Positions 42,548 through 60,986 of a stretch of DNA of 64,000 nucleotides are shown here, piece by piece. Where the stretch lies: the NCBI GenBank assembly GCA_963621995.1, contig CAVFFZ010000004.1:16876-80875 (forward strand), read 5' to 3'. Both the position numbers and the translations under genes were made by a program. The stretch's first letter is position 1. Each line of letters opens with the position of its first letter. This DNA comes from Lachnospiraceae bacterium (lineage in GTDB: Bacteria > Bacillota > Clostridia > TANB77 > CAG-508). The notes under the pieces were generated by a model that saw only the letters and a program-made list of their open reading frames with translations, had not been told where the DNA came from and searched no databases.

Positions 42548-42720
42548 TTTTAAACTCTCCCTTCTTTATTTATTAAATTTTTTAAATAAACTTATTAATT
42601 TTTCCATTTTTTTTCATATTATATACTCTTTATGGTATTTTGTAAATATAGGGGTATACTTTCAACTTTTGCTATAAATTCCGAATAATTTTAACTTGAC
42701 TGAGCAATTCCTTTATTTTA

Positions 42721-42749
42721 TTGACTTTTTGGCATTTTTAATATATAAT
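42721..42749 (+). promoter_or_regulatory. sigma-A promoter, TTGACT-17 nt-TATAAT
   Basis: About 40 nt upstream of the AAA-M41 gene start. Confidence 0.55.
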
Positions 42750-42787
42750 ATAAATATATTTTGTTTTAATTTAAAGGAGGCGATTTT

Positions 42788-44728
42788 ATGAAGTTAAACA
42801 TTACATCTCAAAAACTGATAAACGAAATGAAACGGATAATGCAAGAACAGGCAAGAACTAGTTGCAATGTGCAAACATTAATTAATTCTCTGTTTGACAT
42901 TCGTGATACTGAAAATGATTTTGCGAATTTATTTTACATTTATTTTGAAAGAAAATTAAAAATTAAAATTGATGTTATAGATTCTGCAATTCTTCAACTC
43001 AATAATGAAACAGAAATTGGCGTAACTAGTACAAAGTTTGTGTTTGAGACTTGCGAAGGTAATACCATAGATATTGAAATTGACGAAGAACTTGAAAAAG
43101 TCATTTATTCTGTAAATAATATTCTTATAGAAAATGAAAAAAAATACGTCATCCCAGATTATTTTGTGGTAGCACTTTTTGAATCAGAATCTCAAACAAT
43201 GCGTAGGTTTTTGAAGAAAATTAATGCTAATTATATGGAGGCAAAAGCATTCTTCAAAAGAGAAAAAATTTTTGGTTATGAAATTGTACCATATGAACTT
43301 AGTTCTTTTGTATGGTACAGGAACCCCGATTACAAAGGAATAGATTGTGATATTGTAGGGAGGGAAGAAGAAATCAAAGCAATTTATCGTATCATGTTAA
43401 AATCCAGCAAGCGGAATGTTATTATCTATGGCGACGCAGGTGTAGGTAAAACTGCTGTTGGAGAAAAGTTTATTTATGAAATAGCAAATGGATTGTGTCC
43501 CTTGAGATTTGCTAATTTCAAAGTTCTTGAGATGAGTGTAAGACACTTCATACTCAATTGCGAAAATTCAAGACAAGCTAATGAAAAGATGAATTCACTT
43601 TTGGATTTTTTAAGTAAGCAAAAAGATGATATTGTTTTGCTTATTGATGAAATTCAGACAATACTTGGTAAAGGTGGATTTTTTGATTCAAAAAAACTTG
43701 ACTTGTCAGCAACTTTAAAACCAATTCTGGCACGAAGCGATTTAAGAATTATTGGAATAACAACATCAATTGATTATTACAATAATTTTTTGTCAGATGA
43801 AACACTTTCCAGAAGATTTGAAGGAGTAGAAATCAAAGTTCCCAAATATAGTGAAATCTTTGACCTAATTATTCCAAGAGTAAAAAGAATAGAAGCCAAA
43901 AAAGGAATATCAATTTCCAATGAAGCTATTAATCAATGTATTTGGTATGCCGCGTGTTTTGAATACAATAAGTCAAACCCAGATAAGAGTATTGATGTTG
44001 TTGATAGAGCAATGGCAAATGCTGAATTGGAAGGCAGAAATTATGTTATGAAAGATGACATTGTAAATGTTTTCAGAATTTCATTTGAAAAATGGAATAA
44101 TATGGATGAAAATGTTAGACTTTCAACAGCATATCATGAAGCTGGGCATTATGTTATATCACGAATCATTAGCCGTAAAGTATATGAGGTCCTTGCAGTA
44201 TCAATATATCCAACAGATGAGTACAACGGTGTTAATGTATTCGAGTATAATGATGAAGCTACCCCTATAACAAACAGAAAATTCTTTTTGGATAATATGG
44301 CTGCCGATTTAGGAGGAAGAGCAGCAGAAGAGCTTGTGTTTAATGATGTCACTAGCGCAGCAACCATTGATTTGTTTAATGCAACAGAAATTGCCAAGAC
44401 TATGACTATGGAATATGGCTTTTGTGGAAAAATTGGCAAGAATAGGTACTATGCTGATTCAGACATGAAAATCGGTAGTGGTGAAAATGCAGATAAAATA
44501 AGCGAAGAAATAAATAATATAATAGATGAAGCTTATGAGCTAGCTAAGGAATATCTGGTAAACAACAGAGATTACCTTGACGCGATTGCAAATGCATTGG
44601 TAACACATAAGATTCTTATGAAAGAAGAACTAGACCTAATATGGGAACATGTTTCTAAAAAAAGAAGTGCATATAAGAAAGGTAAAAAAGTTGTGAAACG
44701 CATAAAAATAATGAAAATATTTAAATAA
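42788..44728 (+). CDS. soluble ClpA/B-like (Clp_N plus D1 AAA+) ATPase fused to an FtsH-type M41 metalloprotease domain
   Basis: IVGREEEIKAIYRIMLKSSKRNVIIYGDAGVGKTA, LLIDEIQ, LSRRFEGVEI (Clp D1), then TAYHEAGHYV...DLGGRAAEELVF (M41 HEXXH). No TM segment seen. Confidence 0.75.
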   Translation: MKLNITSQKLINEMKRIMQEQARTSCNVQTLINSLFDIRDTENDFANLFYIYFERKLKIKIDVIDSAILQLNNETEIGVTSTKFVFETCEGNTIDIEIDEELEKVIYSVNNILIENEKKYVIPDYFVVALFESESQTMRRFLKKINANYMEAKAFFKREKIFGYEIVPYELSSFVWYRNPDYKGIDCDIVGREEEIKAIYRIMLKSSKRNVIIYGDAGVGKTAVGEKFIYEIANGLCPLRFANFKVLEMSVRHFILNCENSRQANEKMNSLLDFLSKQKDDIVLLIDEIQTILGKGGFFDSKKLDLSATLKPILARSDLRIIGITTSIDYYNNFLSDETLSRRFEGVEIKVPKYSEIFDLIIPRVKRIEAKKGISISNEAINQCIWYAACFEYNKSNPDKSIDVVDRAMANAELEGRNYVMKDDIVNVFRISFEKWNNMDENVRLSTAYHEAGHYVISRIISRKVYEVLAVSIYPTDEYNGVNVFEYNDEATPITNRKFFLDNMAADLGGRAAEELVFNDVTSAATIDLFNATEIAKTMTMEYGFCGKIGKNRYYADSDMKIGSGENADKISEEINNIIDEAYELAKEYLVNNRDYLDAIANALVTHKILMKEELDLIWEHVSKKRSAYKKGKKVVKRIKIMKIFK

Positions 44729-44754
44729 ATTTTTCATTTATATCGTCAAAAATA

Positions 44755-44789
44755 AAAAGGATCAAACTACAATAGTTTGGTCCTTTTTC
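44755..44789 (+). terminator. intrinsic terminator after the AAA-M41 gene
   Basis: AAAAAGGATCAAACTA-loop-TAGTTTGGTCCTTTTT. Confidence 0.6.
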
Positions 44790-44862
44790 TCTATTAATTT
44801 CTGTAATTTTCACTTTTACGCAATATATGTATGAAAAATTGAAATTTAAGAAAATTATATTT

Positions 44863-44882
44863 ATAAGCATTGCAATGCTTAT
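44863..44882. promoter_or_regulatory. perfect 20-bp palindrome overlapping a -35 box (candidate operator)
   Basis: ATAAGCATTGCAATGCTTAT. TTGCAA (44870-44875), 18 nt, TGgTATAAT (-10 at 44894-44899). Confidence 0.5.
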
Positions 44883-44979
44883 GTAAATTATGGTATAATA
44901 ATAGAGTGTAAAGCAAACTTATATGAAACTTTAACAGTATGTTTAAAAATAAATATATATCATTTAAGGAAGGATAATT

Positions 44980-45270
44980 ATGGACGAATTTATTGTTATT
45001 AAAGTAATGAATAAGGCTACTTTGAGAGTATTGAAAAACCAAAATAAAGATTATTCAAAAAATGAAAAAATCTGTAGTCTTTTAGAGGATGAATCTTTTT
45101 TTTATAAAGTAACAAAAGAAGCTTCATTAGCGGTATTAAATCAAGTTGGAGTGAATACAGAAATGCTTGATATAACATACAAAAAATTAGTAAATAAAAT
45201 AAATTTTGATAAATTAGTTAATCAAGGTAAAATTGATATAAATGATGAAAATTTAGTTGTTAAATTTTAA
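44980..45270 (+). CDS. hypothetical 96-aa protein (first gene of the operon)
   Basis: AAGGAAGGATAATT-ATG. No family recognised. Confidence 0.5.
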   Translation: MDEFIVIKVMNKATLRVLKNQNKDYSKNEKICSLLEDESFFYKVTKEASLAVLNQVGVNTEMLDITYKKLVNKINFDKLVNQGKIDINDENLVVKF

Positions 45271-45293
45271 TTAAAGGAGAAATATTTTTCAAA

Positions 45294-46310
45294 ATGAGTA
45301 ACGAATATATAAAAAAATTTTATGAAGAAGCTTGTACGAATTTAGATGGTGAATATAAAATTGTAGTAGAAGCCGATAGAGACATTGAGGAAGAATGGAT
45401 TGAGCATGATGTTATAGATTGGCAAATAGAAGATTGTATGAAAAGTTTAGTGGAAGAGCTTTCCAAAAATACATTATTAACTTTTGAAGAAAAAGTTTTA
45501 AAATTATACGAATTTATATGTTTACATTATGTATATGATGTAAATGTATTATATTTTTTTAGAACAGATACAACAGATCCAGAAAATATTAAACATATTG
45601 CATGTGATTGGTATGGACGTATTATAAAACAAGATTGGTATTTAAAAAGACAAAATCATAATAGAAGAATATGTTATGAGTTCTCTAGATTTTATGCTAA
45701 AGCAATTAATACTTTGATTGACAATAAAAACGATTTAGAAGCAGTTATATTAGGAGATAGAGAAAATAATCATTATGTTGTCGGACTAACAGGAAAAGAT
45801 TATAGTATTATATTAGATCAAGATGATTTTAATCAAATAAAAGATTTAACAAGAGTTAAATTAGGTTTAACAATCAAAGGTATACATATATTTAGAGATG
45901 ATTCAGGAAAATTTACAAAAATACTTGAAAATTATAATAATAATAAATTAGATGAAGTAAAAGAAATTTCTGATGCGAGAAAAAAATACTTAGAAAATAA
46001 TGATATTATTGCATACATAAATGTAATTATTGATGTAATGAGAAAAAACAACATTGATGCTCAAGGTTGTTTTGAATATGTTAGAATTACAATAGAAAAA
46101 TTAGGAATGGATTTTCAAAAAATCTGGAAAGAAGATATTTCTGCAGATGAAAAAAGATATGAAAGATGTTTATACTTTAATGTAGATGATAAAAATTATT
46201 TATTAGATAGTATTGAAAAAAAATTGAAAGAAGTAACTGAGGCAGATTTAAGAGGTAGTGAATTTGTTTTTAGTCCAGAAGAAAACGAATATAAATATTA
46301 TGGTGGTTAA
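45294..46310 (+). CDS. transglutaminase-fold (Cys-His-Asp) protein, paralog 1
   Basis: EEKVLKLYEFICLHYVYD..., RRICYEFSRFYAKAI (Cys), NHYVVGLTG (His), ILDQDDF (Asp). Order and spacing match the transglutaminase-like core. Confidence 0.55.
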   Translation: MSNEYIKKFYEEACTNLDGEYKIVVEADRDIEEEWIEHDVIDWQIEDCMKSLVEELSKNTLLTFEEKVLKLYEFICLHYVYDVNVLYFFRTDTTDPENIKHIACDWYGRIIKQDWYLKRQNHNRRICYEFSRFYAKAINTLIDNKNDLEAVILGDRENNHYVVGLTGKDYSIILDQDDFNQIKDLTRVKLGLTIKGIHIFRDDSGKFTKILENYNNNKLDEVKEISDARKKYLENNDIIAYINVIIDVMRKNNIDAQGCFEYVRITIEKLGMDFQKIWKEDISADEKRYERCLYFNVDDKNYLLDSIEKKLKEVTEADLRGSEFVFSPEENEYKYYGG

Positions 46311-46325
46311 AAGGAGATATATTAT

Positions 46326-47462
46326 ATGAATCTAACAAAAATCAGTCAATTAAGTAATTTAATTAGTAGAGATTTAAAAAGAAAGGTTACAATAATGCTT
46401 GATCCTTCTGAAAATTATCGTATGGTTGGTAATTCAAATGAAGTTTTGTTAAGCACTGATCCAGTTGAATGGGAAATTCCTTTAAAATATGTTAAAAAGA
46501 TTGATGAGTTATGTAGTAACCCTGAGTTAAGCACTGAAGAAAAAATAGTAAGAATATATGAGGATTTATGTGAAGATTATACATATGATGATAATGTTTT
46601 ATCATATATTACTAAAAATGATGATGATACATTTTCTTTAACAGACTATTATGGTAGAAACACAAGTAAAGAATGGAGAAAAGAACGAAATAAACACAAT
46701 AAAAGAAATTGTTTTGAAATGTCTAGAATTCTTGCAAAATCTGTTAAAAAAATAACAAATAACGATGAAAAACCTTATGATTATAATGTATGTGTTATTT
46801 GGGATGAGGCGGTTACTCATTATTTAGTTGGACTAACTGGTAGTGATTATTTTGCAACACTTGATTTGGATGATTTTAATCAAATAAAGGATTTAACAAG
46901 GCAAAAAGCAAATCTTACCTTAGAAGGAATAAAAATATATGAAGACCCTAATAATCGTTTAACTAATGTAGTTAATGAACATAATTGTGGTAGAAAATCA
47001 AGTGCATTAGATGCAATAGAATGTAGAATAGATCAAAAAGAAAATATAGAGCCTAATTATAAATCATTAATTGAATATAATGATCTTGAATTTATAAAAG
47101 AAACAATAGATATTTTAAAGAATGAACTGAAAATTGACTCACAAGGTATTTATGAATATATAAAAGAAATTGTAGATACAAAATTTGGACCAAGAACTAG
47201 AAAAAAAGTTTGGACAGAAGTACCAAGCAAACCAGGTATTGGTAAAATATATACTCGTGGACTTGTACTACAAATATATGGTAAATCTTATTTAATAGAT
47301 GTTACAAGTAAAACATCAGATGATATGATGCGTCAGGTTACAAAAGAGGAGCTGAATTCTCCAAACGGACCAATTCCATATAATAAATTGCAACGTAATT
47401 GGGATACAGATCCTTTTGATGGTCGTGCTGGTAAAGAATATTATGATGAAGAGGAGAGATAA
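46326..47462 (+). CDS. transglutaminase-fold (Cys-His-Asp) protein, paralog 2
   Basis: EEKIVRIYEDLCEDYTYD..., KRNCFEMSRILAKSV, THYLVGLTG, LDLDDFNQIKDLTR. Clearly paralogous to 45294..46310. Confidence 0.55.
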   Translation: MNLTKISQLSNLISRDLKRKVTIMLDPSENYRMVGNSNEVLLSTDPVEWEIPLKYVKKIDELCSNPELSTEEKIVRIYEDLCEDYTYDDNVLSYITKNDDDTFSLTDYYGRNTSKEWRKERNKHNKRNCFEMSRILAKSVKKITNNDEKPYDYNVCVIWDEAVTHYLVGLTGSDYFATLDLDDFNQIKDLTRQKANLTLEGIKIYEDPNNRLTNVVNEHNCGRKSSALDAIECRIDQKENIEPNYKSLIEYNDLEFIKETIDILKNELKIDSQGIYEYIKEIVDTKFGPRTRKKVWTEVPSKPGIGKIYTRGLVLQIYGKSYLIDVTSKTSDDMMRQVTKEELNSPNGPIPYNKLQRNWDTDPFDGRAGKEYYDEEER

Positions 47463-47467
47463 TAAAA

Positions 47468-48082
47468 ATGAAAAAAAAAGTTATTGTGGTTATTGCTACA
47501 GAATCAAAAGATAAAATATCAGGAATCCAAGAAGCTTTTAATGAATTCTTTCCAGATAAGGATTATGGTGTAAAATATTATTATGGTAAAACACAATCTG
47601 ACGTTTCTGATCAACCATTTGGTGATGAAACATATTTGGGGGCTTATAATAGAATTAATAATATTAAGGCTAAATACGATTCAATATTAAAAGATAAAGA
47701 CGCTGATTATTATGTTAGCTGTGAAGCAGGTATAGATGACACAAATAAAGCAATGGTAGCTGGTAAATTAGAAACAATGTATGCTAGTGAACAAATTTCT
47801 TGTATATTAAATACTCAAACAGGTGAATATTCTTATGGCAAAAGTAGTTCGTGGATGATTCCTGCTGAAGATATAAAAAAAATTAAAGAATCTGATTTAG
47901 ATCAATATTTAAGAGGTTTAGAGTACACAGGATTACATGATGTGGGAAATGGCAATTATATTTCCAGAAGTATAGCTGTAAAACAATCTATGGAATCAGC
48001 AATAGCAACAAGTTTGTTTTTAGAAAGAAAACAAAAAATAGAAGAACGTAAAAATGCAAATGACATTGATGAAAAGCAATAA
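47468..48082 (+). CDS. YjjX-family (DUF84) non-canonical NTP phosphatase (ITPase/XTPase-like)
   Basis: VVIATESKDKISGIQEAF..., SDVSDQPFGDETYLGAYNR, YYVSCEAG, as in inosine/xanthosine triphosphatases. Confidence 0.6.
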   Translation: MKKKVIVVIATESKDKISGIQEAFNEFFPDKDYGVKYYYGKTQSDVSDQPFGDETYLGAYNRINNIKAKYDSILKDKDADYYVSCEAGIDDTNKAMVAGKLETMYASEQISCILNTQTGEYSYGKSSSWMIPAEDIKKIKESDLDQYLRGLEYTGLHDVGNGNYISRSIAVKQSMESAIATSLFLERKQKIEERKNANDIDEKQ

Positions 48083-48089
48083 TTTTTAA

Positions 48090-48312
48090 TGTTTGAACAT
48101 GTTATATATAATAATAAGTGATTTTTATTATCAATTTTATGTTGTAATGCACCTTGAATGATTTGATAAATTATATTATTCATATTCAATGTTCTTTGAC
48201 CTGTATTTGTTTTTGTAGTATTTCCTATAATTGCTTTGCCATTATTATCTTTTGTTTGAGTTCTTCTAATATAGATTTTTATGTTTTCTTGTGATTCATA
48301 TTAAAAATAGTA
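48090..48312 (-). pseudogene. relic of a tyrosine integrase gene (internal fragment fused to its own upstream region)
   Basis: 48100-48287 aligns with 50160-50341 of the integrase at 49810-51203. 48283-48312 aligns with the xis-int spacer at 51292-51320. The junction lies in the shared heptamer GTTTTCT. Confidence 0.7.
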
Positions 48313-48453
48313 ATTTTTTGTTGAAAAAATAAAAATTTGTAATATAATAATATAGACATTAAATGCTGTCTAGTCTTTGTCTGCGACTAGATGGTATTTT
48401 TTCGTTTTTAAGAGAAAATACCAACAACTTTTTAATGAAAGGAGGAGGTATAG

Positions 48454-48930
48454 ATGCCTAAAACAAAGTTTCAAAACCTTATATTTACCTTAATGACTGC
48501 TGTTTTAATGGCTTATTGTATGATTGCTTATAGTGTAGCAATAAATTCATCAGCTGGATTAATAAATCAAACATTTTTAATAGCATTAAAGGAATTTCCA
48601 ATAGAAGGAATTATTGTATTTTTATTAGCATATTTTGTTGCGAGTCCAATTGCTAAAAAACTAGCTTTTAGAATAGTAAATCCTAAAGAAGATAATAAAA
48701 TGTTTATCATTTTATCAATTCAAACATTTACTGTTTTAACAATGGTAGGGTTAATGAGTATATATGCCTTATTTGCACAACATTTAATAAATAGTAATAT
48801 TGTGTGTAATTATATAGTTTTGTATTGTAAAAACTTTATAATGGCTTTCCCTTTGCAAATATTTTTTGTTGGACCGTTAGTAAGAAATATTTTTAGAATT
48901 ATATTTAAGAAACAATTACAATCATTATAA
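48454..48930 (+). CDS. DUF2798-like membrane protein
   Basis: 158 aa, four hydrophobic segments, GGAGGAGG RBS. Family assignment is from memory. Confidence 0.5.
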   Translation: MPKTKFQNLIFTLMTAVLMAYCMIAYSVAINSSAGLINQTFLIALKEFPIEGIIVFLLAYFVASPIAKKLAFRIVNPKEDNKMFIILSIQTFTVLTMVGLMSIYALFAQHLINSNIVCNYIVLYCKNFIMAFPLQIFFVGPLVRNIFRIIFKKQLQSL

Positions 48931-49427
48931 CAACAACTTACAATTTTTATTTGTATCTGATTTTCTAACCTCTGGACAATTGAAAAACGGACTTCCAGAA
49001 GTTTGATTTTCAGACTTCACATTTATAAATTCTTCTCTTATTTCTGATATAGTTTTTCCTACATAAATTCTATTAGGTTTATTATTTCCTTGTCTTTTTT
49101 CTCTAATTAAATTAGCTTTATTTAGTTGTTCAAAGGCAGAACTAATAGCAGACTTACCAACATGTAATTTTGTTTCTAAATCCATTCTCGTAAAAATCAC
49201 ATACATATTTTCTTCTTCATCATAGTAATTTTTTTTCCTTTAGGAATATTATTTGCCAATTCATTATTATAGGTAAGTGATAATCTATCACATAATAGAG
49301 AATATAGTAGAATTGCTGTAGGAGATAAATCTTTATAAATCTCATTATTGCAAAGTTCTTTGTTTACTCGAAAAAATTCAACTTTTCGATAATCTTCTTT
49401 AATTTTATGTGGTACAAAAGTTAACAT
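48925..49427 (-). pseudogene. RepA_N-type replication initiator, frameshifted in a homopolymer
   Basis: Track ORFs 49197..49427 and 48925..49206. LLYSLLCDRLSL... and ...FTRMDLE...AFEQLNKANLIREKRQGNNKPNRIYVG parallel the intact copy at 56735-57640. The break is in the T8 run at 49231-49238. Confidence 0.7.
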
Positions 49428-49464
49428 TGAAATTTCTCCTAAACCAGATGGGATAAGAGATTGC

Positions 49465-49552
49465 TATTCTTGAAATTTTCTTGAAATTTTTTTGAGATAA
49501 AAAATAATTCTTGAAATTTATTTTTGAAATTTTTTCGGTATTTTCAAGAATT
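49465..49552. repeat. iteron-like repeats (TTCTTGAAAT), three direct, one partial, one inverted
   Basis: Immediately upstream of the rep gene. The same TTCTTGAAA core is repeated at 57697-57751. Confidence 0.6.
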
Positions 49553-49809
49553 TTATAGAATTGGATAAAATTAAAGACACATGCTATAATCTTACAGACA
49601 TGTGCCTTTACATATTTTAGACTTTTTTAGAATTTTCTGAGATTCTTTGAAAAATCTCTTTAATTGGTCGAGGCGAGGTACTCTCGACAATTGCTATTTT
49701 TCTTTATTTATCACGTAATTTAAAGTCTTGTATTTTTACTTTGAAACATTTCCTTGAAACTTTAGTAAAATCAATTCTAATAAAGGTTCAAGGCTTTTCT
49801 TTGGGGTTT

Positions 49810-51203
49810 TTAAGCATATTCATAATTGTAAGCTGAATCTACATAAAATATTTCTTTATCTATTAAATAATCTTCAACATTCTTATTTTCTGCCTTTTCA
49901 AATTCAACATCTACGTCAACATAGTATTTCATTGTGACAGTAATATCAGTATGCCCCAATATCTTCTTAAGAACTGCTGGAGCAATTTTAGCTTCTGCAC
50001 ATCTAGTTGCAAATGTTCCCCTTAACATGTGAGTATGAATATCAGTCTTTTTTACGACTTGTCCTTTTGTATTTTCTTCTTCGTAAATTCCAATATCCAA
50101 ATCTAATGCAATTCTTTTTAAGCTACTATTTATAGAGTTTTCTACATACATTGTTCTATCTTCTTTACAAAATAATAAATGTTCTTTATTATCAATCTTG
50201 TTTTCTAAAGCACCTTGAATAATTTGATAGATTATATTATTCATATTCAAAATTCTTTGACCTGTATTTGTTTTTGTAGTATTTCCTATAATTGCTTTGC
50301 CATTATTATCTTTTTTTGAGTTCTTCTAATATAGATTTTTCTGTTTTCTAAATCTATATCTTTATCATAATCTAAAACTAAAGCTTCTCCTATTCTCATT
50401 CCTGTACTCAATAATAGTAACAAGATATATTTGTGTCGACATTCCTTATAACTTGCATTATTCAAATAATCAACCAATTTCTTTTGTTCATCAACTGTTA
50501 GTGAAACTCTATGATGACTTTTATATTCACTTTTTGACTTTTCAACTCTATTATAGCCTTCCATAAAATTATCTGTTATGATATTTTCATATTTTGCTTG
50601 TCCAAATTCCATACATAATAACTCATAGTTTTGTTTTATAGTGCTTTTAGAATAATTTTTCAAACTCTCTAAATATTTAACAACTTCATCTCTTGTAACT
50701 TTGGAAATAGGTTTATTGGTAAATTTCTCTTTAGCTAGTTTCTTTATTGTATCTGATTTTCTTTTGTGTGTTGCCTTAATTATCTTACCTAATTTATAAT
50801 CTTCTTCAATTTTGCCTTTTACAAGATCAATTATTGTTTTATTACTTTTAGTAATTATTCTAAATTCTTGATTTTCTTCCATTTCAATTTGAAATGACAA
50901 TGCCTTATTAAATGCTTCTTTTTCATTCTTACCTACAAATGTTTTAGTTGTTCTTTTTCCTGTAATTGTATCCCTTCCTGTTGTTACTATTGCTTTCGGT
51001 GTTATAGAAAAATAGAAAGAATCACATTCTACATTGTTATCAATCACTTTTCCATTTTCAAATTTTGTTATTTGTCTATATTTACATTTATCTTTCATTT
51101 TACAGTGATTACAAATCTCTTTGCTAGATAAACCTTTATCTTTTGAATTTCTGATTGTTTTTGTTAAATAAGTTCCTACAGTAATTCCTTTTACTTTATT
51201 CAT
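49810..51203 (-). pseudogene. tyrosine recombinase/integrase, frameshifted in a homopolymer
   Basis: Track ORFs 50286..51203 and 49810..50250, colinear with the intact integrase at 58033-59340. The T7 run at 50311-50317 is one base shorter than the equivalent TTTTGTTT in the relic at 48250-48257. Confidence 0.8.
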
Positions 51204-51375
51204 TTTTCGCTTTCCTTTCTTGTTAAATTTAAGGAAAACTCTTGATATATTTTGATTTTTTGTGTATAATTATTTTAATACTATAGCAAGAGTTTTCTTG
51301 TGATTCATATTAAAAATAATAGTTTGAAGGTTTAAATGTCGCATATTTAAATCTTCTTTTTTATCTCTTGTAATC

Positions 51376-51570
51376 TTATTCATTTACTTCACTTAAAACT
51401 CTACGTGTACTCACGTATTCATTAAATGAACTTACAGCAACTTTAAATGATTTTCCTACTTTGATACAAGGAAAATCAGAACGATGGAATAAGTCTAAAC
51501 ATGTTTTATTTCCTATTCCTAATATTCTTCTTACATCTGATGTAGTATAAAATTTAATTTCGTTTTCCAT
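51376..51570 (-). CDS. xis: excisionase-family HTH DNA-binding protein
   Basis: MENEIKFYTTSDVRRILGIGNKTCLDLFHRSDFPCIKVGKSFKV...; the ATG at 51570 follows AAAGGAG. Paralog of 59487..59684. Confidence 0.7.
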   Translation of the reverse strand: MENEIKFYTTSDVRRILGIGNKTCLDLFHRSDFPCIKVGKSFKVAVSSFNEYVSTRRVLSEVNE

Positions 51571-51938
51571 AAGTTTTTTCTCCTTTCGTACTTTATTTAC
51601 GATGATATTTTCTTTGCCCCTCATCATCTGGGAATTATTAGATGGTAATTTACATTACTCCACTGGAATTTAACCACTCCGACTCTGTCCGAGTTGCACC
51701 CTATACGATGAGTTAAGGCTATGCAAGTGTCTCATTATGTTGTATCTAACAACTGAAATATTCAATTTTCAATGTCCTATCTAAAGAATTTAGGGAAATT
51801 CTATTGACTTTTCAAAGTAATTATTGTAATCTATATATATCAACAAGTAATTACTTGGCTTTATCAAAGTATAACGTAAGCTTTATAATTTGTCAAGCGA
51901 TTACAATAAAATTTTTAAATATTTTTTAGGAGTGGAAA

Positions 51939-52796
51939 ATGAAAGCTAATTTTTATATAGAAAATCAACGTTTTTGTCTTGCATTTGACAGATATGTAAT
52001 TGAAGAAATAAACGGAAAAAGATATGTTTTACCAGAAAAAGGAGCTAAAAGTCATGCTTCAACATTTTCTGATTGGATAGATAGATATTTAATAGATATT
52101 TTAAATATTGGGAAAAAAGTATATTACAAAGAGAAAATTGAAGACATAGAAATTTTAGACTATGTGCGAAACTATGGTTTATTTGGATTTATGGCTGATT
52201 TCCCAGTTAATAGATATTATGTTTTAGATGATATTGTAGCTTTAAGAGATTATAATTTAATAGAATATGAAGATCATATAACAAATATGAATTTAGAAGA
52301 ATACCTAAATTTCTTTATGCCAAAACTAAACGATAATCAAATTAAAGAACTTATTGAAAAATGTAGAAATGATATATCTCCTAGAATTATGGAAAAATAT
52401 CTTACACCAGAACTAAATGAATTTTTAATTTTTTCTAAAAACTATGGAGAACCTGTTGATATGATTTTGCAATATGCAAAAATTCTATATGAACATCTTG
52501 TTCACTTTGTAGAAGAACGTCACTTAATGAATTACTCTCCACTTATAGCAATAAATAATCTTTATATTAATATAGATAGCTTACACAATAATGAAATAGG
52601 TTTAGTTTATGGTTATTTAAAACAAGCAATAGATTTGAATTTCTTAGTGAATTTATCACAAGATACTATTATGCTTAAGATTTGTAAATTCTGTCATAAA
52701 GCTTTTATACCAAAAAACTCAAAGGCAGAATATGATACACCACAGTGCAAGAATAAGGCAAATGTGTATAACTTTAGAAAAAGAGCTCAAGAATAA
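51939..52796 (+). CDS. hypothetical protein with a C-terminal Cys cluster (paralog family of 59862..60965)
   Basis: Divergent from xis. C-terminal CKFCHKAFIPKNSKAEYDTPQCKNK resembles CQYCNRYFIPKIRQDEIYCD...SCREK in the other copy. Confidence 0.55.
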   Translation: MKANFYIENQRFCLAFDRYVIEEINGKRYVLPEKGAKSHASTFSDWIDRYLIDILNIGKKVYYKEKIEDIEILDYVRNYGLFGFMADFPVNRYYVLDDIVALRDYNLIEYEDHITNMNLEEYLNFFMPKLNDNQIKELIEKCRNDISPRIMEKYLTPELNEFLIFSKNYGEPVDMILQYAKILYEHLVHFVEERHLMNYSPLIAINNLYINIDSLHNNEIGLVYGYLKQAIDLNFLVNLSQDTIMLKICKFCHKAFIPKNSKAEYDTPQCKNKANVYNFRKRAQE

Positions 52797-52870
52797 TGAG
52801 TGAATAATATATTTTTAATTGTTATATTAACAAAGAATTACTTAAATAGATTATTAAAAGGAGAATTTTG

Positions 52871-53456
52871 ATGAAAAGTAGTAAAGAAAAATATTATAAT
52901 ATTACAAAAAATGCAAAGCCACATTTAAATGTACTTAATTTTATAAATCTTAATGTGTCACCGGGAAAAGCTGTCGACTTAGGATGTGGTGCAGGAAGAG
53001 ACACTATAGAGTTACTAAAAAATAATTGGAATGTTTTATCCATAGATAAAGAAGATACAGAATCTATTATAAGAGAACAGCTTAACCAAAAAGAATCAGA
53101 GAATTTTAAGTTTAAAAAATGTTTTTTTGGTGAAATGAATTTGCCTAAAGTAAATTTAATTGTTGCAAATTTTAGCCTACCTTTTTCAAAAAAAGAGTTT
53201 TTTAGTGATATATGGAAAAATATAACTAATTCTCTTTCAGATGAACGGGTATTTTGTTGGAAATTTTTTTGGAAAAAAAGATACATGGGCAGAAACAAAA
53301 GAAAATCTAATATTTTTAACAGAACAAGAAGTCAAAGCTCTTTTTAGTGATTTTGAATTAATTCAATTCAATGAAATAGAAAAAGATGCAATAATAGCTT
53401 CTGGTGAAAAAAAACATTGGCACATATATGATGTTATTGCACAGAAAAAAATCTAA
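52871..53456 (+). pseudogene. class I SAM-dependent methyltransferase, single-base frameshift
   Basis: VDLGCGAGRDTIELL motif. Track ORFs 52868..53347 and 53241..53456 are joined by deleting the C at 53246 (SLSDE|GYFVGNFFGKKDTW). Confidence 0.7.
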
Positions 53457-53473
53457 TATTTTTAAGGAAAATA

Positions 53474-53502
53474 TTGACAAATTAGAATAAATAGCATATA
53501 AT
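53474..53502 (+). promoter_or_regulatory. consensus sigma-A promoter, TTGACA-17 nt-TATAAT, for the RiPP operon
   Basis: TTGACA 53474-53479, TATAAT 53497-53502. It is followed by the leader hairpin CATAAAAGT...ACTTTTATG plus TTTTT (53509-53568). Confidence 0.6.
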
Positions 53503-53605
53503 TGTTAACATAAAAGTTGTTGAATTAATATCGGATAGCTAATATCTGATGACGACTTTTATGTTTTTAGTAACTGTAGGAATATGCTAGAAAGGAGGTT
53601 TCCCA

Positions 53606-53800
53606 ATGAAAACTACAAAAAAAACTGGCATCGCGAAAACTAACTTTTGGACGAATGGAAGTAGTTATGCTTCTAGACGTTCAGCTCAGAGCTTTTTGAA
53701 TCCACAGCCGAAAACAAAAGTCACAGCAAATAGTGAATGTGAAAGTGGTTGCAATAACTCTTGTGGCACAGCTTGTGCTTCTGGATGCACCGATTTCTAA
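53606..53800 (+). CDS. Cys-rich RiPP precursor peptide (64 aa)
   Basis: GGAGG RBS. The C-terminal core ECESGCNNSCGTACASGCTDF has five Cys at exact 4-residue spacing. It sits directly upstream of a radical SAM/SPASM gene. Confidence 0.7.
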   Translation: MKTTKKTGIAKTNFWTNGSSYASRRSAQSFLNPQPKTKVTANSECESGCNNSCGTACASGCTDF

Positions 53801-53820
53801 TTTACATTTGCAAAACACAA

Positions 53821-53851
53821 AGGAGGAATATTAATTTATTAGTATTCCTCC
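53821..53851 (+). terminator. intergenic hairpin between precursor and maturase (partial terminator/attenuator)
   Basis: GGAGGAATA-12 nt-TATTCCTCC followed by a T-rich tract. Confidence 0.4.
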
Positions 53852-53879
53852 ACCTTTATTTTATAGGAGGTTTAAACTT

Positions 53880-54896
53880 ATGACAAAAAATTATTTTGCT
53901 ATGCAATGGCATATTACCGATAAATGTGATCAACGGTGTAAACATTGCTACATTTTTGCAGGCGAAGACAAATTATATTCACCAGAGTTTGATTTGCCAA
54001 TTCTAAAAGAAATCTTTTTTGATTTTTTGGCTACGTGCAAAAAAATGGACAAAAGACCGAGTATTTCTGTGACTGGTGGAGACCCTTTGTTGCATAAAGA
54101 TGTATGGAGTTTACTAGCTCTTTTTAAAGAGTATAATGTTCCTTTTGCAATTTTAGGTAATCCTTTCCACTTAAATGAGAATGTAGCAAAACAGCTAAAG
54201 GAATTAGGTTGTACTACTTATCAGATGTCTTTAGATGGTCTTAAAGAGACACATGATTTTATTAGAAAACCTGGTTCATTTGATGCAACTTTAAATAAAA
54301 TTCATGTTTTAAATGAAGTTGGAATTAAGTCAGCTATTGCTACAACTGTTTCAAAAACCAATATTGATGAAATACCTCAGCTTGTAAAAGTTGCAGTAGA
54401 TTATCAAGCAAAATCTTTTGGATTTTCAAGATACTGCCCAAATGAAAAAGATAGAGATAACCTTGTATCTCCTTCTGAATACAAAGCCTTCTTGGAAAAG
54501 ATGTGGGAACAGTTTATTATCCTTCAAAATAAAGGAACAGCCTTTATATTAAAAGACCATTTATGGAAACTGTTTCTGTATGAAAAAGGATTGTTCAAAA
54601 TTGAAGATGATTCTGAACTTATTATGGATGGATGCCATTGCGGCATTTCTCATATTACAGTTTTAGCAAACGGAACTGTTTATGCATGTAGAAGGTGTGA
54701 AAGCCCTATCGGTAAAGTTCCAGAAGAATCTTTGTATGATATCTTCTTTGGAGATAAAATGGAATCATATCGCAATTTTGAGGGCTTTGAAGCTTGTTCT
54801 AAATGCGAATTATTACGATTTTGCAGAGGTTGTCCTTCGGTAGCTAAATGTGCAACTGGAAATTTTTATGCAAAAGATCCTCAGTGTTGGAAATAA
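53880..54896 (+). CDS. radical SAM/SPASM-domain peptide maturase
   Basis: CDQRCKHC (CX3CX2C), GGDPLL, and a C-terminal Cys cluster CHCG...ACRRC...CSKCELLRFCRGCPS (SPASM-like). Confidence 0.8.
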   Translation: MTKNYFAMQWHITDKCDQRCKHCYIFAGEDKLYSPEFDLPILKEIFFDFLATCKKMDKRPSISVTGGDPLLHKDVWSLLALFKEYNVPFAILGNPFHLNENVAKQLKELGCTTYQMSLDGLKETHDFIRKPGSFDATLNKIHVLNEVGIKSAIATTVSKTNIDEIPQLVKVAVDYQAKSFGFSRYCPNEKDRDNLVSPSEYKAFLEKMWEQFIILQNKGTAFILKDHLWKLFLYEKGLFKIEDDSELIMDGCHCGISHITVLANGTVYACRRCESPIGKVPEESLYDIFFGDKMESYRNFEGFEACSKCELLRFCRGCPSVAKCATGNFYAKDPQCWK

Positions 54897-54918
54897 AACA
54901 AAATAATTTTGAATAAAG

Positions 54919-54951
54919 GTCGATAGCACAAAACTGTACTATCGACTTTTT
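54919..54951. terminator. terminator GTCGATAG-loop-CTATCGAC plus TTTTT
   Basis: Lies between the convergent maturase gene and the 110-aa ORF. Confidence 0.55.
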
Positions 54952-54956
54952 CTATC

Positions 54957-55289
54957 TTATATAATTCCTATTCTTTTAAAATAATAATAAGCATCCATTC
55001 CACCTTTGAAATATAATTCTTCGTCAGTCATAATTTGCATTTTTTCTTGTAGCTCTATTGCGTTATAAAGTAAACCACATTCAATAGGTGTCAATCCTGT
55101 TTCTACTTTATCTCCAAATAAAATATTTTGTAACTTTTCATTACTGTCTAAAATCTTTGTATATTCTTTTTGCAAATTTTTAAACTCACTATTATTTTTT
55201 TGTAAGTATATTCTTACTCCATCTAAATGTTCCATAAATTCATCTTTACAATCTTCGTAAAAAGTGGTAAATCTTTTTATATTTTCCAT
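54957..55289 (-). CDS. hypothetical 110-aa protein downstream of the relaxase
   Basis: ORF with an AAAGGA RBS, 15 nt after the mobV stop. Confidence 0.45.
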   Translation of the reverse strand: MENIKRFTTFYEDCKDEFMEHLDGVRIYLQKNNSEFKNLQKEYTKILDSNEKLQNILFGDKVETGLTPIECGLLYNAIELQEKMQIMTDEELYFKGGMDAYYYFKRIGII

Positions 55290-55304
55290 ATTATCAAATC
55301 CTTT

Positions 55305-56529
55305 CTAATATTCAATATCAAAATCGTTATTTTTCTTCTTAAATTCGTTTCTATCAAGTTGTTTTTCAAAATTAAAGTCAGTATATGTTTCTCTCTCAAA
55401 ATCTCGTACAAGCTCATCCTCAGATGGATATGAAAATTTATGACAAAGCCATTTGATAAATTTTTTTAAAGTTGTTTTAAACTTATCTATTATCTTATTT
55501 AATTGCTTATTTTCTTGCTTTAATTTATGAATTTCTTTTTTATATTCATGTTCCATATTATAGGCTTTACTTTCAAATTTCAATTCTAGTTCTTTTTCCT
55601 TATGTTCCAATTCTTCTTTCAATAAACTATTAGAGAGCCTTAAATTTACGTTTTTCTCTGTCATATTTATATAATCTTCTTTGAAATTTTCTGCAAAATC
55701 TACAGTATTTACTTGTTTTGACAGTTCTTTATTTAAAGTTAAATTTTCTTTGTGAAGTTTTAAAATTAATTCATCTTTTGGCTTTATAATTTTTTCAAAT
55801 ATCTTTTCATCTCTATTAAGCATTACTTTTTTTATATCGCTTATCTGGGGAGTTTCTGGCAATTCTAAAGTTATATTTTCCAATACCTTTTTAGTATTTT
55901 CAAAATTAGTTATTTGCTTGTAATTTTGTATGGTTTCGTTTTTTCTTTTGGTTTCTTCAGCAGGTAATCCTCTTTGCAAGTCAAAACCTTTGCTTGTTAT
56001 ATATTCATAAAAAGCATTTTGCAAATTTCTATAACTATTTCTGCCTTTCCAAAAATCTCTACAACATACTTTATCAATTTCTTTTCCATCTTTATCTTTT
56101 GTATGAATTACTGGAATATAAATCAAATGCATATGTGGTGTAGTTTCATCAAAATGCACTACTGCTGAAATTATATTTTTTTCTCCAAGATTTTTGTAAT
56201 TACAAATAAACTTGTAGCTTTCTTCAAAATATCTTTTAGTTTCTTCCAGTCCTATTGTATCAAAAAATTCTTTATCTGATGTAAATACCATTTCACACAT
56301 TATTATGCTATTACTTCTAATTTGACCTTGCAAAGCATATTTTTCCCTTAGTCTATCAAATTCTTTTGTGTAACTTAATTCATTTTTCTTAAAGTAATAA
56401 TTCAAGTGCGATTTACTAATATCTATTTCCTTATTTGAATGACTTTTTGCTTTTCTATCATTATGAACACATATTCCGATTAGCTTGGCTCCTCGTTAAT
56501 TTCTCATTTCTTACTATAGCATAACTCAT
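55305..56529 (-). pseudogene. MobV (Mob_Pre) family relaxase, single-base frameshift near the N-terminus
   Basis: HFDETTPHMHLIYIP (HxDExxPHxH). The true N-terminus MSYAIVRNEKL... (ATG at 56529) is out of frame with ...GAKLIGICVHNDRK... and is restored by deleting the base at 56495. Confidence 0.75.
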
Positions 56530-56565
56530 TGCTCCGAAGTCCTTTCTTGCTCGAAACAAATTTAT

Positions 56566-56585
56566 TTGTCTAACACACTAGACAA
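56566..56585 (-). other. candidate oriT hairpin
   Basis: Minus sense TTGTCTA-GTGTGT-TAGACAA: an inverted repeat with a GTGTG loop, just upstream of the MobV gene, as in MobV-family oriT sites. Confidence 0.4.
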
Positions 56586-56734
56586 GTTTTTCAAACTTAT
56601 CCGTGTGCTCTGCGAGGCTTTCCTAAAAATGCTTTAACATTTTTAGGCTATAAATTATAATGAACTTATCATTATAATTTATAGTGAAATTGCCCATATA
56701 AAGTAGAGCTGGCAATTTCATATCATAGCTATGC

Positions 56735-57640
56735 TTACGTAGTTACAGCTTCGTTATTATAAGCAAAGTTAGTATAGAGAAAATCAAGTGAGCCATCTTC
56801 ATAGTTCCTTCCTTTATAAGAAACTTTATTTTCTTCTTTCTTTGAGATAGAAATATTTGTATTCCCTAAATTGTTATATAAGCAAATCATTAAATAACTT
56901 TTAGAATTTTGTATATTAGGTATATTCTTCAATATATCTAATAACTGTATTAAATTTTCTTTTACTATAAGCTTTAACTTATCTAATATTTTATAGTGAT
57001 TAATTGTTATATTCCCAACTTTTAAAGTATCTTTATAATATAAACTATCAATAACATCTTCTAAAATAGTTTTTTCTTCTTGTGAAAAGTCCTCTAGTTT
57101 GCATTTATCTTTTATTTCTTTTAAATAAAACTCATCATCACTATTAGGATTGATAGAATCAGTATTGATTATATTAGTTTTGATATTATTAGTATTGATT
57201 CCTCGTAAATTCTTCGATTCTAAATTCGTAATATTTTCGTTTCCAGAATCGTAATTTTTACGAATCAAGAAACGTAGATTTTCCGTTTCTTCATGTTGTA
57301 TTTTCCCAACATATATTAAATTAGGCTTTCCTAATCCTTGTCTTTTCTCTTGAACAAGTCCTACATCATTTAATTGTTTAAATGCTTTTGTAGCAGTCTT
57401 ATCAGATAAATTTAATTTTTCTTGTACTTCTTCTCTTGTAAAAATTAAATATATATTTCTTTCATCATCTATCCAATGATTTTTTTGAGATAGAGATAAT
57501 CTATCTAGTAAAAAAGCATATAATATTTTACTATCAGAATTTAGTTTATCTTTATATAAAGAACTTACAAACAGTTCTTGTGGTATTTTATAATATGAAT
57601 TTTCTAAATATTCATTATCTTTATAAGGTTTAAATTCCAT
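56735..57640 (-). CDS. RepA_N-family replication initiator
   Basis: YYKIPQELF...ILYAFLLDRLSLS...IFTREEVQEKLNLSDKTATKAFKQLNDVGLVQEKRQGLGKPNLIYVG. Confidence 0.75.
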   Translation of the reverse strand: MEFKPYKDNEYLENSYYKIPQELFVSSLYKDKLNSDSKILYAFLLDRLSLSQKNHWIDDERNIYLIFTREEVQEKLNLSDKTATKAFKQLNDVGLVQEKRQGLGKPNLIYVGKIQHEETENLRFLIRKNYDSGNENITNLESKNLRGINTNNIKTNIINTDSINPNSDDEFYLKEIKDKCKLEDFSQEEKTILEDVIDSLYYKDTLKVGNITINHYKILDKLKLIVKENLIQLLDILKNIPNIQNSKSYLMICLYNNLGNTNISISKKEENKVSYKGRNYEDGSLDFLYTNFAYNNEAVTT

Positions 57641-57696
57641 AAAAAAAGTTCTCCTTTCTGTTTATTCGAAGAACTTTAAAATTACTTGATATTTTT

Positions 57697-57751
57697 TTCT
57701 TGAAACATTCTTGAAACATTGTAAATATTTTCTTGAAACTTTTTCTTGAAG
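57697..57751. repeat. iteron-like repeats (TTCTTGAAAC), four copies
   Basis: Directly upstream of the rep gene. Confidence 0.6.
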
Positions 57752-58032
57752 AAAATATGCACATTTTATAGAATTTTTCCGAACTCAAAAAAATTATGCT
57801 ATTCTTCATTTTTATTGAAAAATAGCATAATTTATAACTTTTGAATTTTTATAAATTCTCTTAAATTCCCTTGAAAAAGGGCAAAATATGGTCGAGGTGG
57901 TAGCTTTTTCAAACTACCCCAAACCTTTTATTTATCAATGTTTTATGATACTTTTGGTATTTTAAAACATTTTTTTAAAACCCTTATTTTAGTATTAATC
58001 TAAAATTCAAATGTTTAATTTTAAATGTTCTT

Positions 58033-59340: not shown

Positions 59341-59486
59341 AATATTTCCTCCATTTCTTAAATTTTTTGAGGAAATACCTTGCTCAATTTTTAAATTGGT
59401 AGTATAATTATTTTACAAATATATCGAACAGGGTATTTCCTGTTTACTAGAAGATTTAATGTGCTAGATTAAGTCTTCTTTCTTTT

Positions 59487-59684: not shown

Positions 59685-59861
59685 ATTTTTACCTCCTTTC
59701 CTTGACAATACTTACTTAATATAGTATAACTATATTGTGAGAGATTTGTCAAAACTATTTAAAATTGTAAATTGATTATATAATCATATTTTATATTTGT
59801 CAACATATTTGTAAAAATATTTTGAAATATTTCACATTTTGTTTTTAGGGGGATTAAAAAG

Positions 59862-60965: not shown

Positions 60966-60986
60966 CCACATATATGGAGGCAATAT

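What the first reader, a model, noticed from the sequence alone, without database searches (positions are those of the whole stretch)
42721..44728. Soluble Clp-D1 AAA+ ATPase fused to an FtsH-type M41 protease domain
One 646-aa ORF combines three parts.
- A Clp_N-like N-terminal region.
- A ClpA/B/C D1-type AAA+ module: IVGREEEI..., Walker A GDAGVGKTA, Walker B LLIDEIQ, and LSRRFEGVEI.
- A C-terminal M41 zinc-protease domain: TAYHEAGHYV and DLGGRAAEELVF, as in FtsH.
It has no transmembrane segments and no D2 or middle domain. Canonical FtsH uses its own AAA module and is membrane anchored, while Clp ATPases normally partner with a separate ClpP. A cytosolic Clp-type unfoldase hard-wired to an M41 protease is therefore an unusual architecture.
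The gene has a strong stand-alone promoter (TTGACT-17-TATAAT) and its own terminator. It sits next to the TGase/YjjX operon in an accessory region. ATPase-protease pairs are a recurring theme in phage-defence systems, but any link here is inference.
Basis: partly seen in the sequence, partly recalled or inferred. Interest (0 to 1): 0.65.

Follow-up and report, generated by a model that had tools for sequence, protein, structure and literature searches.

The report
Soluble Clp-motor / FtsH-protease fusion gene
This is a real, intact gene for a membrane-free protein that joins a Clp-type recognition domain and one Clp-type ATPase motor to an FtsH-type zinc protease. It belongs to a sizeable protein family from uncultured gut Clostridia for which I found no published study, and here it is a horizontally acquired cargo gene with an altered substrate-gripping loop.

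Summary
One 646-aa ORF (42788-44728; 42721 is the promoter's -35 box) encodes three parts:
- a divergent Clp_N domain;
- a single Clp/Hsp100 D1-type AAA+ module with intact Walker A, Walker B and arginine fingers;
- an FtsH-type M41 domain with HEAGH and the third-ligand Asp.

There is no TM segment, M-domain or D2. It is not an assembly chimera. Every full-length protein among the 120 best-listed relatives has the same layout with fixed Walker A-to-HExxH spacing, and an exhaustive search lists more than 100 clusters at 50% identity.

New points:
- The window's subfamily sits on a long branch inside the family. It has lost the pore-loop-1 tyrosine (AGTxYRG becomes NCENSRQ) and gained a lysine-rich amphipathic C-terminal tail.
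- The gene is the first gene of a ~23.6-kb species-specific island at an integration hot spot next to copZA. Relatives lie beside the same integrase/RepA_N element type.
- The genus's usual chromosomal family member is missing from this genome.
- No partner gene is conserved, and no known defence model matches.

The most likely function is a self-contained, FtsH-like hexameric ATP-dependent protease carried as accessory cargo. Substrates are unknown. Verdict: a new variant of a known kind, moderately interesting.

The parts
42721..42749 (+). Sigma-70-type promoter TTGACT-17-TATAAT
   Evidence: One search gives 11 of 12 matches. Similarity to relatives' loci (tblastx, translated) starts at 42729, so part of the promoter travels with the gene.
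42774..42781 (+). Ribosome-binding site AAAGGAGG, 6 nt before the ATG
   Evidence: Read directly from the sequence.
42788..44728 (+). Coding sequence of the 646-aa Clp_N / Clp-D1 AAA+ / M41 fusion protein (P0001)
   Evidence: The AF2 model has mean pLDDT 85.5.
42788..43285 (+). Residues 1-166: divergent Clp_N-like double four-helix repeat with a beta-hairpin insert (residues 82-98)
   Evidence: hhalign against canonical Clp N-domains gives probability 89%, E 2e-6. The ClpB model aligns from residue 87.
43343..43837 (+). Residues 186-350: the D1-type AAA+ large subdomain. It holds Walker A 215-222, the non-aromatic pore-loop-1 255-268, Walker B 283-289, pore-loop-2 292-304 (GKGGFFDSKK), sensor-1 IGITT and Arg fingers R342/R343.
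43838..44101 (+). Residues 351-438: the AAA lid (AAA_lid_9 type) and linker. Clp homology ends at about 413-427, where ClpB and ClpC would insert the M-domain. FtsH homology begins at about 406-412.
44102..44635 (+). Residues 439-616: M41 zinc-protease domain with H450-E451-x-x-H454 and third-ligand Asp528
   Evidence: Pfam E 3.5e-33. The residues are invariant in alignment A1. Foldseek TM-score 0.57-0.67 (target-normalised) to FtsH and AFG3L2 chains.
44651..44725 (+). Residues 622-646: lysine-rich amphipathic C-terminal tail, specific to this subfamily. It is about 30 residues shorter here than in the 677-aa relatives.
   Evidence: 16-23 K+R in the last 60 residues, helical hydrophobic moment 0.72-0.93 except in one variant (P0008, 0.55) whose C-terminus differs; the tail is absent from the wider family.
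44754..44788 (+). Intrinsic terminator hairpin followed by a U-run
   Evidence: dG -17.9 kcal/mol, z -6.7.
42674..64000 (.). Species-specific island whose first gene is the fusion gene. It runs past the window end to about C4:83183, roughly 23.6 kb in all. Synteny with the closest relatives (dprA-comM-copA-copZ) stops at 42673.
   Evidence: An integrase relic lies at 48110-48316.

Best explanation
The gene encodes a cytosolic, self-contained ATP-dependent zinc metalloprotease.

**Proposed mechanism (inferred from homology and a monomer model)**
- Six subunits form an FtsH-like double ring. A ring of Clp/Hsp100 D1-type AAA+ modules sits on a ring of M41 protease domains, with the active sites enclosed.
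- The divergent Clp_N domains on top select substrates or adaptors.
- ATP binding and hydrolysis drive or gate passage of polypeptide into the M41 chamber. Walker A K221, Walker B D287/E288 and Arg fingers R342/R343 are all intact.
- In the chamber, HEAGH plus Asp528 cleave the polypeptide.

**How this copy differs**
- Most of the family keeps the Clp pore-loop AGTxYRG. This subfamily has replaced it with a conserved non-aromatic motif (C-[EDN]-[ND]-S-x-x-ANE).
- It carries a Phe-Phe pair in pore-loop 2. Its grip on substrate must therefore differ, and it is probably weaker or restricted to loosely folded targets.
- A subfamily-specific cationic amphipathic tail may tether the enzyme to an anionic surface such as membrane or RNA.

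**Genomic status (shown)**
- The copy is horizontally acquired cargo at an integration hot spot.
- It is an addition to a full canonical protease set (ClpP, Lon-like proteins, two FtsH, two Clp ATPases).
- The genus's usual family member is absent from this genome.

Substrates are unknown.
For: **Architecture and catalytic residues**
- Walker A, DE, RRF, HExxH and the third-ligand Asp are invariant across 30 diverse members.
- Walker A and an HExxH motif are present in all full-length proteins listed, about 233-235 residues apart.

**Fold**
- The AF2 model has pLDDT 85.5.
- Its AAA+M41 part superposes on FtsH, AFG3L2 and YME1 chains over 470-490 columns (TM 0.57-0.67 normalised to the target). 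Its N+D1 part matches ClpC and Hsp104.

**Real family**
- 1593 hits at E<=1e-5. All full-length proteins among the best 120 listed (114 of 600-760 aa) share the AAA + M41 layout.
- The exhaustive search gives 209 hits at E<1e-30. At least 112 representatives carry Walker A and HExxH at the right spacing.

**Derived state of this subfamily**
- It nests inside the pore-loop-bearing clade on a long branch.
- The substituted loop is conserved among members 51-95% identical to the window protein.

**Cargo status**
- Synteny with three relatives at 90-92% nt identity ends at 42673.
- Gene GC3 is 23% against 12-13% in neighbouring core genes.
- Relatives lie 3-4 kb from the same integrase/RepA_N/TnpV element type.
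- An integrase relic follows the downstream operon.

**Genome background**
- Canonical proteases are present.
- The genus-core site is empty.
Against: - No biochemical or expression data exist. Read mapping was unavailable.
- Hexamer formation and ring stacking are inferred, not modelled.
- The pore-loop-1 aromatic residue is needed for translocation in FtsH, ClpX and the Clp D2 rings (established knowledge). Its absence here leaves processive unfolding in doubt.
- Elsewhere in the family the motor has decayed outright while the protease motif stays. These are the ~530-575-aa forms with no DE, no Arg fingers and no pore loops. ATP-driven threading is therefore not obligatory for the family.
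- No conserved neighbour points to a substrate.
Confidence: 0.68

Rival explanations
1. The protein is a nucleotide-gated, non-threading protease. In this subfamily the AAA+ ring no longer translocates substrate. It serves as an ATP-dependent assembly or gating scaffold, or as a sensor. The M41 ring then cleaves only peptides or intrinsically unfolded targets that diffuse in or are delivered by the Clp_N domain.
For: - The pore-loop-1 Tyr is lost.
- Motor decay with the HExxH motif retained has happened repeatedly in the family. It includes the genus's own chromosomal copy (L156).
Against: - Walker B DE, sensor-1 and both Arg fingers are strictly kept in the subfamily. That argues for hydrolysis coupled to work.
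- Pore-loop 2 carries conserved aromatic or hydrophobic residues (GGFFD, GGLFD, GNFFE) that could grip substrate.
Confidence: 0.22
2. The protein is a conflict-system effector, acting in anti-phage or abortive-infection defence, or in maintenance or competition of the element. As mobile-element cargo, the protease would destroy a phage, host or rival-element protein when triggered.
For: - It is the first gene of an island of tandem integrative mobilizable modules whose other cargo looks defence-like.
- Relatives sit beside an R-M system (L097) and Fic (L099).
- Others sit beside CBASS-like SMODS/SLATT genes and a Schlafen-type helicase (L101).
- Further neighbours are DUF4435 with AAA_15 (L167) and DUF3800 with Mrr (L172).
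- The distribution is patchy. Among 40 other sampled species of the genus the closest family member is only 37% identical to the window protein.
Against: - No PADLOC model matches.
- No conserved sensor or partner gene exists.
- Family members in other lineages are syntenic housekeeping-context genes, lying between FBA/SmpB and a beta-CASP RNase or next to recG.
- In the P0041/P0050 lineage the gene is fixed next to murA while the defence genes beyond it vary.
- No full-length relative is found in 50,697 phage or 72,556 plasmid records.
Confidence: 0.13
3. The protein acts in metal-stress proteostasis. It would clear proteins damaged or mis-metallated during copper or zinc stress, working with adjacent efflux pumps.
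For: - Here and in the 95% orthologue the gene is divergent from copZ-copA.
- A split Cation_efflux (CDF) gene is divergent upstream in three 67-76% relatives.
- copA, CsoR and CNNM lie nearby in a 37% relative.
- None of 102 canonical-Clp control loci had such neighbours.
Against: - None of 20 further family contexts has a copper- or CDF-type pump. One has a distant P-type ATPase about 7 kb away.
- L001, L002, L099, L101 and L170 have no such neighbour.
- In this window the adjacency arises because copZA flanks an integration hot spot. Relatives carry other inserts at the same point.
Confidence: 0.06
4. The gene is an assembly chimera or a decaying pseudogene made of clpC-like and ftsH-like fragments.
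For: None was found.
Against: - The same single-ORF layout with constant spacing occurs in many independent assemblies from different studies.
- The frame is intact and the catalytic residues are invariant.
- The AF2 model is confident across the junction (pLDDT 83-93 for residues 420-460).
Confidence: 0.01

Closest known systems
FtsH / AFG3L2 / YME1 (MEROPS M41 AAA proteases; TIGR01241)
   Same: - A single AAA ring is fused in cis to an M41 domain with HExxH and an Asp third ligand.
- The overall AAA-plus-protease fold is the same (Foldseek TM 0.57-0.67 to 3kds, 6nyy, 6az0, 7tdo).
- The M41 part is 34% identical to one of the genome's own FtsH genes.
- It probably works the same way, as a stacked hexamer with an enclosed chamber.
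   Different: - It has no N-terminal TM helices or extracytoplasmic domain.
- The ATPase is Clp/Hsp100 D1-type with an AAA_lid_9 lid, not the classic-clade FtsH module. TIGR01241 matches only residues 435-615 and scores 110 bits against a cut-off of 600.
- The N-domain is Clp_N-like.
- There is no aromatic pore-1 loop, whereas FtsH has the MFVG motif.
Clp/Hsp100 unfoldases (ClpC, ClpA, ClpB/Hsp104, ClpE)
   Same: - A Clp_N-type N-domain followed by a D1 AAA+ module with the signature IVGREEEI, GxxGVGKT, LFIDEIH-like and RRF motifs.
- About 30% identity to ClpC, ClpB and Hsp104 D1.
   Different: - There is only one ring: no D2, no M-domain and no ClpP-docking loop.
- The protease is fused in cis and is a metalloprotease rather than the serine protease ClpP.
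- The D1 pore-loop Tyr is replaced.
- Scores are far below every equivalog cut-off (131 bits against 993 for ClpA).
The wider unnamed Clp-D1/M41 fusion family
   Same: The domain order and catalytic residues are the same, with 33-40% identity over residues ~166-620. The window protein is a member of this family.
   Different: - Most members keep AGTxYRG and lack the basic tail.
- Some are syntenic chromosomal genes.
- The window subfamily forms a single 50%-identity cluster (representative P0038). It sits on a long branch and is linked to mobile elements.
Mobile protein-quality-control loci (LHR / TLPQC type) with ClpK/ClpG next to an ftsH xenologue
   Same: A Clp-type ATPase and an FtsH-type protease are carried together on mobile DNA. 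Plasmid hits show adjacent 'AAA family ATPase | ftsH' gene pairs.
   Different: - Those are two separate full-length genes: a two-ring ClpK/ClpG and a membrane FtsH.
- They occur in Proteobacteria within multi-gene heat-resistance loci.
- No sHsp or other such genes are found here.

Membership tests
FtsH (TIGR01241 / MEROPS M41 AAA protease) | M41 peptidase domain with HExxH and a downstream acidic third zinc ligand | tested here: met
   PF01434 matches at E 3.5e-33. H450, E451, H454 and D528 are invariant.
FtsH (TIGR01241 / MEROPS M41 AAA protease) | N-terminal membrane anchor (two TM helices) | tested here: not met
   The maximum 19-residue hydropathy mean is 1.02, so there is no TM segment. 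The N-terminus is a Clp_N-like helical domain.
FtsH (TIGR01241 / MEROPS M41 AAA protease) | Classic-clade FtsH AAA module, and a whole-protein score above the curated cut-off | tested here: not met
   TIGR01241 aligns only to residues 435-615 and scores 109.7 bits against a cut-off of 600. The ATPase part matches Clp D1 models instead.
Clp/Hsp100 (ClpA, ClpB, ClpC equivalogs) | Clp_N domain plus a D1 AAA+ module with Walker A, Walker B and Arg fingers | tested here: met
Clp/Hsp100 (ClpA, ClpB, ClpC equivalogs) | Second AAA+ ring (D2), with a ClpP-docking loop or an M-domain | tested here: not met
   Clp homology ends at about residues 413-427 and an M41 domain follows. Scores are 131 bits against cut-offs of 993-1232.
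Clp/Hsp100 (ClpA, ClpB, ClpC equivalogs) | D1 pore-loop-1 tyrosine (KYRGEFE) | tested here: not met
   The aligned segment reads NCENSRQANEK.
Unnamed Clp-D1/M41 fusion family | A single chain with a Clp D1 AAA, AAA_lid_9 lid and M41 domain, with about 233-235 residues between Walker A and HExxH | tested here: met
   The window protein nests within the family tree.
Known anti-phage defence systems (PADLOC-DB 2.0) | A match to a defence-protein model, with the system's partner genes nearby | tested here: not met
   The only hit is a marginal P-loop match to PtuA (E 0.001, 16.6 bits). No conserved partner gene exists.
Processive AAA+ unfoldase-protease (functional class) | Hexameric ring, ATP hydrolysis and substrate translocation | not testable with these tools
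   Only a monomer model could be made. The catalytic residues are intact, but the pore-1 aromatic residue is absent.

The most novel reading that the evidence does not exclude
The mobile-element-borne subfamily may be a new kind of single-gene conflict or targeting protease. It would be a Clp-D1/M41 machine re-tooled in three ways: a non-aromatic pore-1 loop, an aromatic pore-2 loop and a cationic amphipathic tail. These changes would let it dock on an anionic surface (membrane, ribosome or nucleic acid) and destroy a specific phage, host or rival-element protein. It would travel as a promoter-to-terminator cassette in the cargo slots of integrase/RepA_N elements.
Probability: 0.13. Interest if true: 0.8.

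Novelty: new variant of a known kind. Interest (0 to 1): 0.55.

Why it matters
Textbook bacterial ATP-dependent proteases come in a few fixed designs: ClpXP, ClpAP/CP, HslUV, Lon and FtsH. In these, Clp motors always work with a separate ClpP, and M41 proteases always hang on their own membrane-anchored FtsH motor.

This family shows that a Clp D1 motor with its Clp_N recognition domain can be wired in cis to an M41 chamber, free of the membrane.

The family also offers a natural series for asking what a pore loop, and ATP itself, contribute to an M41 protease:
- forms with a full pore loop;
- forms with an altered pore loop, as in this window;
- forms with a fully decayed motor.

The subfamily rides on mobile elements in uncultured gut Clostridia. 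It may therefore add an accessory proteolytic function, in stress tolerance or conflict, to small genomes.

Tried and rejected
- **Metal-efflux linkage.** copZA, CDF and CsoR neighbours occur in 3 of the first 7 contexts with wide flanks and in 0 of 102 control loci. The pattern did not hold in 20 further family contexts. Here it is explained by the integration hot spot. I kept it only as a low-odds rival.\n- **Conserved operon partner.** Downstream genes of the window, L097 and L099 show no BLASTP similarity. Clustering all ORFs from 28 loci found shared neighbours only through within-genus synteny.\n- **Genome-contig scan.** The scan with alignment A1 chose motifs shared with all Clp ATPases. 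It returned 78 canonical Clp loci and only 2 family members. The Clp loci were reused as controls.\n- **Class-wide profile search.** It mostly re-found canonical Clp genes.
Full report
**Observation**

The ORF runs from 42788 to 44728 on the + strand and encodes 646 aa. An AAAGGAGG ribosome-binding site precedes the ATG. The coordinate 42721 given in the finding is the -35 box of a TTGACT-17-TATAAT promoter (11 of 12 matches). A 16-bp hairpin followed by a U-run lies just after the stop codon, at 44754-44788 (dG -17.9 kcal/mol, z -6.7). The pattern scan missed it.

**Domains**

- Pfam finds Peptidase_M41 at residues 439-616 (E 3.5e-33), AAA at 211-333 and the Clp-type lid AAA_lid_9 at 367-418.
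- NCBIfam aligns residues 189-427 to the D1 halves of ClpA, ClpB and ClpV (E about 1e-38).
- The FtsH equivalog aligns only to residues 435-615. All scores are far below the curated cut-offs.
- PDB sequence hits split the same way. Hsp104, ClpC, ClpB and ClpA D1 cover 188-413, and FtsH protease domains cover about 412-622. No solved chain covers both halves.
- Clp homology stops where ClpB and ClpC would insert the M-domain, and FtsH homology begins in the last lid helix.
- The N-terminal 166 residues form a divergent Clp_N domain:
  - The ClpB model aligns from residue 87.
  - A profile of the subfamily's N-region aligns over residues 4-153 to a profile of 77 canonical Clp N-domains (probability 89%, E 2e-6).
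  - The AF2 model shows two four-helix repeats with a beta-hairpin insert.
- No stretch is hydrophobic enough for a TM helix.
- The AF2 model (pLDDT 85.5) matches ClpC and Hsp104 for N+D1. It matches FtsH, AFG3L2 and YME1 for AAA+M41 (TM 0.57-0.67 normalised to the target).

**Not a chimera: a family**

- A word-seeded search found 1593 relatives at E<=1e-5 among the 8000 candidates scored. All full-length proteins among the 120 best listed (114 of 600-760 aa) carry AAA + M41. Nearly all also have AAA_lid_9 on record.
- Each full-length protein has a Walker A motif and an HExxH motif about 233-235 residues apart.
- The exhaustive search of 1.8 billion representatives gave 209 hits at E<1e-30. 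At least 112 representatives at 50% identity show the fused layout.
- The only names on record are 'AAA family ATPase [Clostridia bacterium]'.
- Four literature searches found nothing on this architecture.
- Notes from earlier windows of this scan describe the same family elsewhere. I treat these as leads only.

**Anatomy of the family**

- Most members keep the Clp D1 pore-loop AGTxYRGxAE, Walker B DE and the RRF arginine fingers.
- Several lineages have lost DE, the arginine fingers and both pore loops while keeping HExxH. These include a ~530-575-aa form lacking the N-domain.
- The window's subfamily forms one 50%-identity cluster (representative P0038), and its members are 51-95% identical to the window protein. 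It sits inside the pore-loop-bearing clade on a long branch.
- The subfamily keeps Walker A, DE, sensor-1, RRF, HEAGH and Asp528. Pore-loop 1 is replaced by a conserved non-aromatic motif (LNCENSRQANEKM here).
- Pore-loop 2 is one residue longer and carries FF or LF.
- The subfamily has also gained a lysine-rich, strongly amphipathic C-terminal tail (16-23 K+R in the last 60 residues). The wider family lacks this tail. The window copy has about 30 fewer tail residues than its 677-aa relatives.

**Genomic setting**

- The genome is 1.51 Mb with 27% GC. It already has ClpP, Lon-like proteins, two FtsH and two two-ring Clp ATPases.
- Three relatives at 90-92% nt identity are collinear through dprA-comM-copA-copZ up to window position 42673. 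They then jump to sequence found at the end of contig C4 and the start of C25.
  - Two of them have about 350 bp at this point. The third has a different insert of about 6.4 kb.
  - About 23.6 kb, starting with this gene, is therefore a species-specific island at an integration hot spot.
- The island contains integrase fragments, RepA_N/TnpV and MobV modules. An integrase relic lies directly after the downstream four-gene operon.
- That operon is also absent from 40 other species of the genus.
- The gene's GC3 (23%) stands out from core neighbours (12-13%).
- Similarity to relatives' loci (tblastx, translated) covers only 42729-44665. The unit shared between contexts is the gene with part of its promoter.
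- Contexts of relatives:
  - Several sit 3-4 kb from the same integrase/RepA_N elements, next to R-M, Fic, DUF3800 or Mrr genes.
  - Others sit next to murA, flanking a variable defence island.
  - Others sit in unrelated chromosome regions.
- The genus's own family member is the decayed-motor form, found between FBA/SmpB and a beta-CASP RNase in 13 syntenic loci. It is missing from this genome, where the two flanking genes abut.
- In an even sample of 400 genomes of the class, only five others had a full AAA+M41 match. All five belong to one family of the same order.
- No full-length relative exists in the phage or plasmid collections.

**Interpretation**

The best-supported reading is a self-contained, FtsH-like hexameric ATP-dependent metalloprotease built from a Clp_N domain and a Clp D1 motor. 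The domain identities, the intact catalytic residues, the family and the cargo status are shown. The ring assembly, the threading mechanism and any role for the tail are inferred.

The missing pore-1 tyrosine is the main caveat. The enzyme may grip substrate through pore-loop 2, or it may act as a nucleotide-gated protease on loosely folded targets.

A defence or element-conflict role is suggested only by context. No PADLOC model matches and no partner gene is conserved.

A link to metal efflux looked striking at first but did not hold up. In this window it follows from where the island inserted.

**Verdict**

The architecture is real, intact and, as far as I could find, unpublished. It is a new variant of the AAA+ protease theme, not a new category. 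This window adds a derived, mobile subfamily with an altered pore loop and a basic tail.

Noticed in passing
window 42674-64000 and on to about C4:83183: There is an integration hot spot between copZ and the gene at the start of contig C25. G000 carries about 23.6 kb here. G020 and G026 carry about 350 bp, including a 150-bp remnant similar to window 57739-57899. G031 carries a different insert of about 6.4 kb.
   Followed up: partly
G000 C1:29830-32477; L156, L144 and 11 other loci: Many species of the genus have a family member between fructose-bisphosphate aldolase/SmpB and a beta-CASP RNase; most are ~540-570 aa. These short forms have a decayed ATPase (no DE, no Arg fingers, no pore loops) but an intact HExxH. 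This genome lacks it, and the flanking genes are adjacent.
   Followed up: partly
window 38364-40011 (-): The comM/yifB-type Mg-chelatase-like gene reads as two overlapping ORFs (283 aa and 276 aa). It looks frameshifted or split. The region is 92% identical to relatives, but I did not compare their reading frames.
   Followed up: no
L097, L105 and L172, about 6955-7834 (-): A Cation_efflux (CDF) gene lies directly upstream of the fusion gene. It is split into the same two ORFs (110 aa plus 152-156 aa) in three diverged relatives. This suggests a shared pseudogene, or a genuine two-part gene that travels with the fusion gene.
   Followed up: no
window 42607/42608: The closest relatives have about 266 extra bases in the copZ upstream region. 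A 95% orthologue context (L104) has a 352-aa ORF inserted between copZ and the fusion gene.
   Followed up: no
window 44980-48082: The downstream four-gene operon encodes a 96-aa protein, two paralogues (338 aa and 378 aa, 33% identical to each other) and a YjjX-type NTPase. It is absent from 40 other species of the genus. Pfam finds no transglutaminase domain in the paralogues.
   Followed up: partly
window 48110-48316: An integrase relic matches 50171-50349 (92%) and 51292-51325 (94%). It marks the end of a decayed element module whose cargo would include the fusion gene and the operon.
   Followed up: yes
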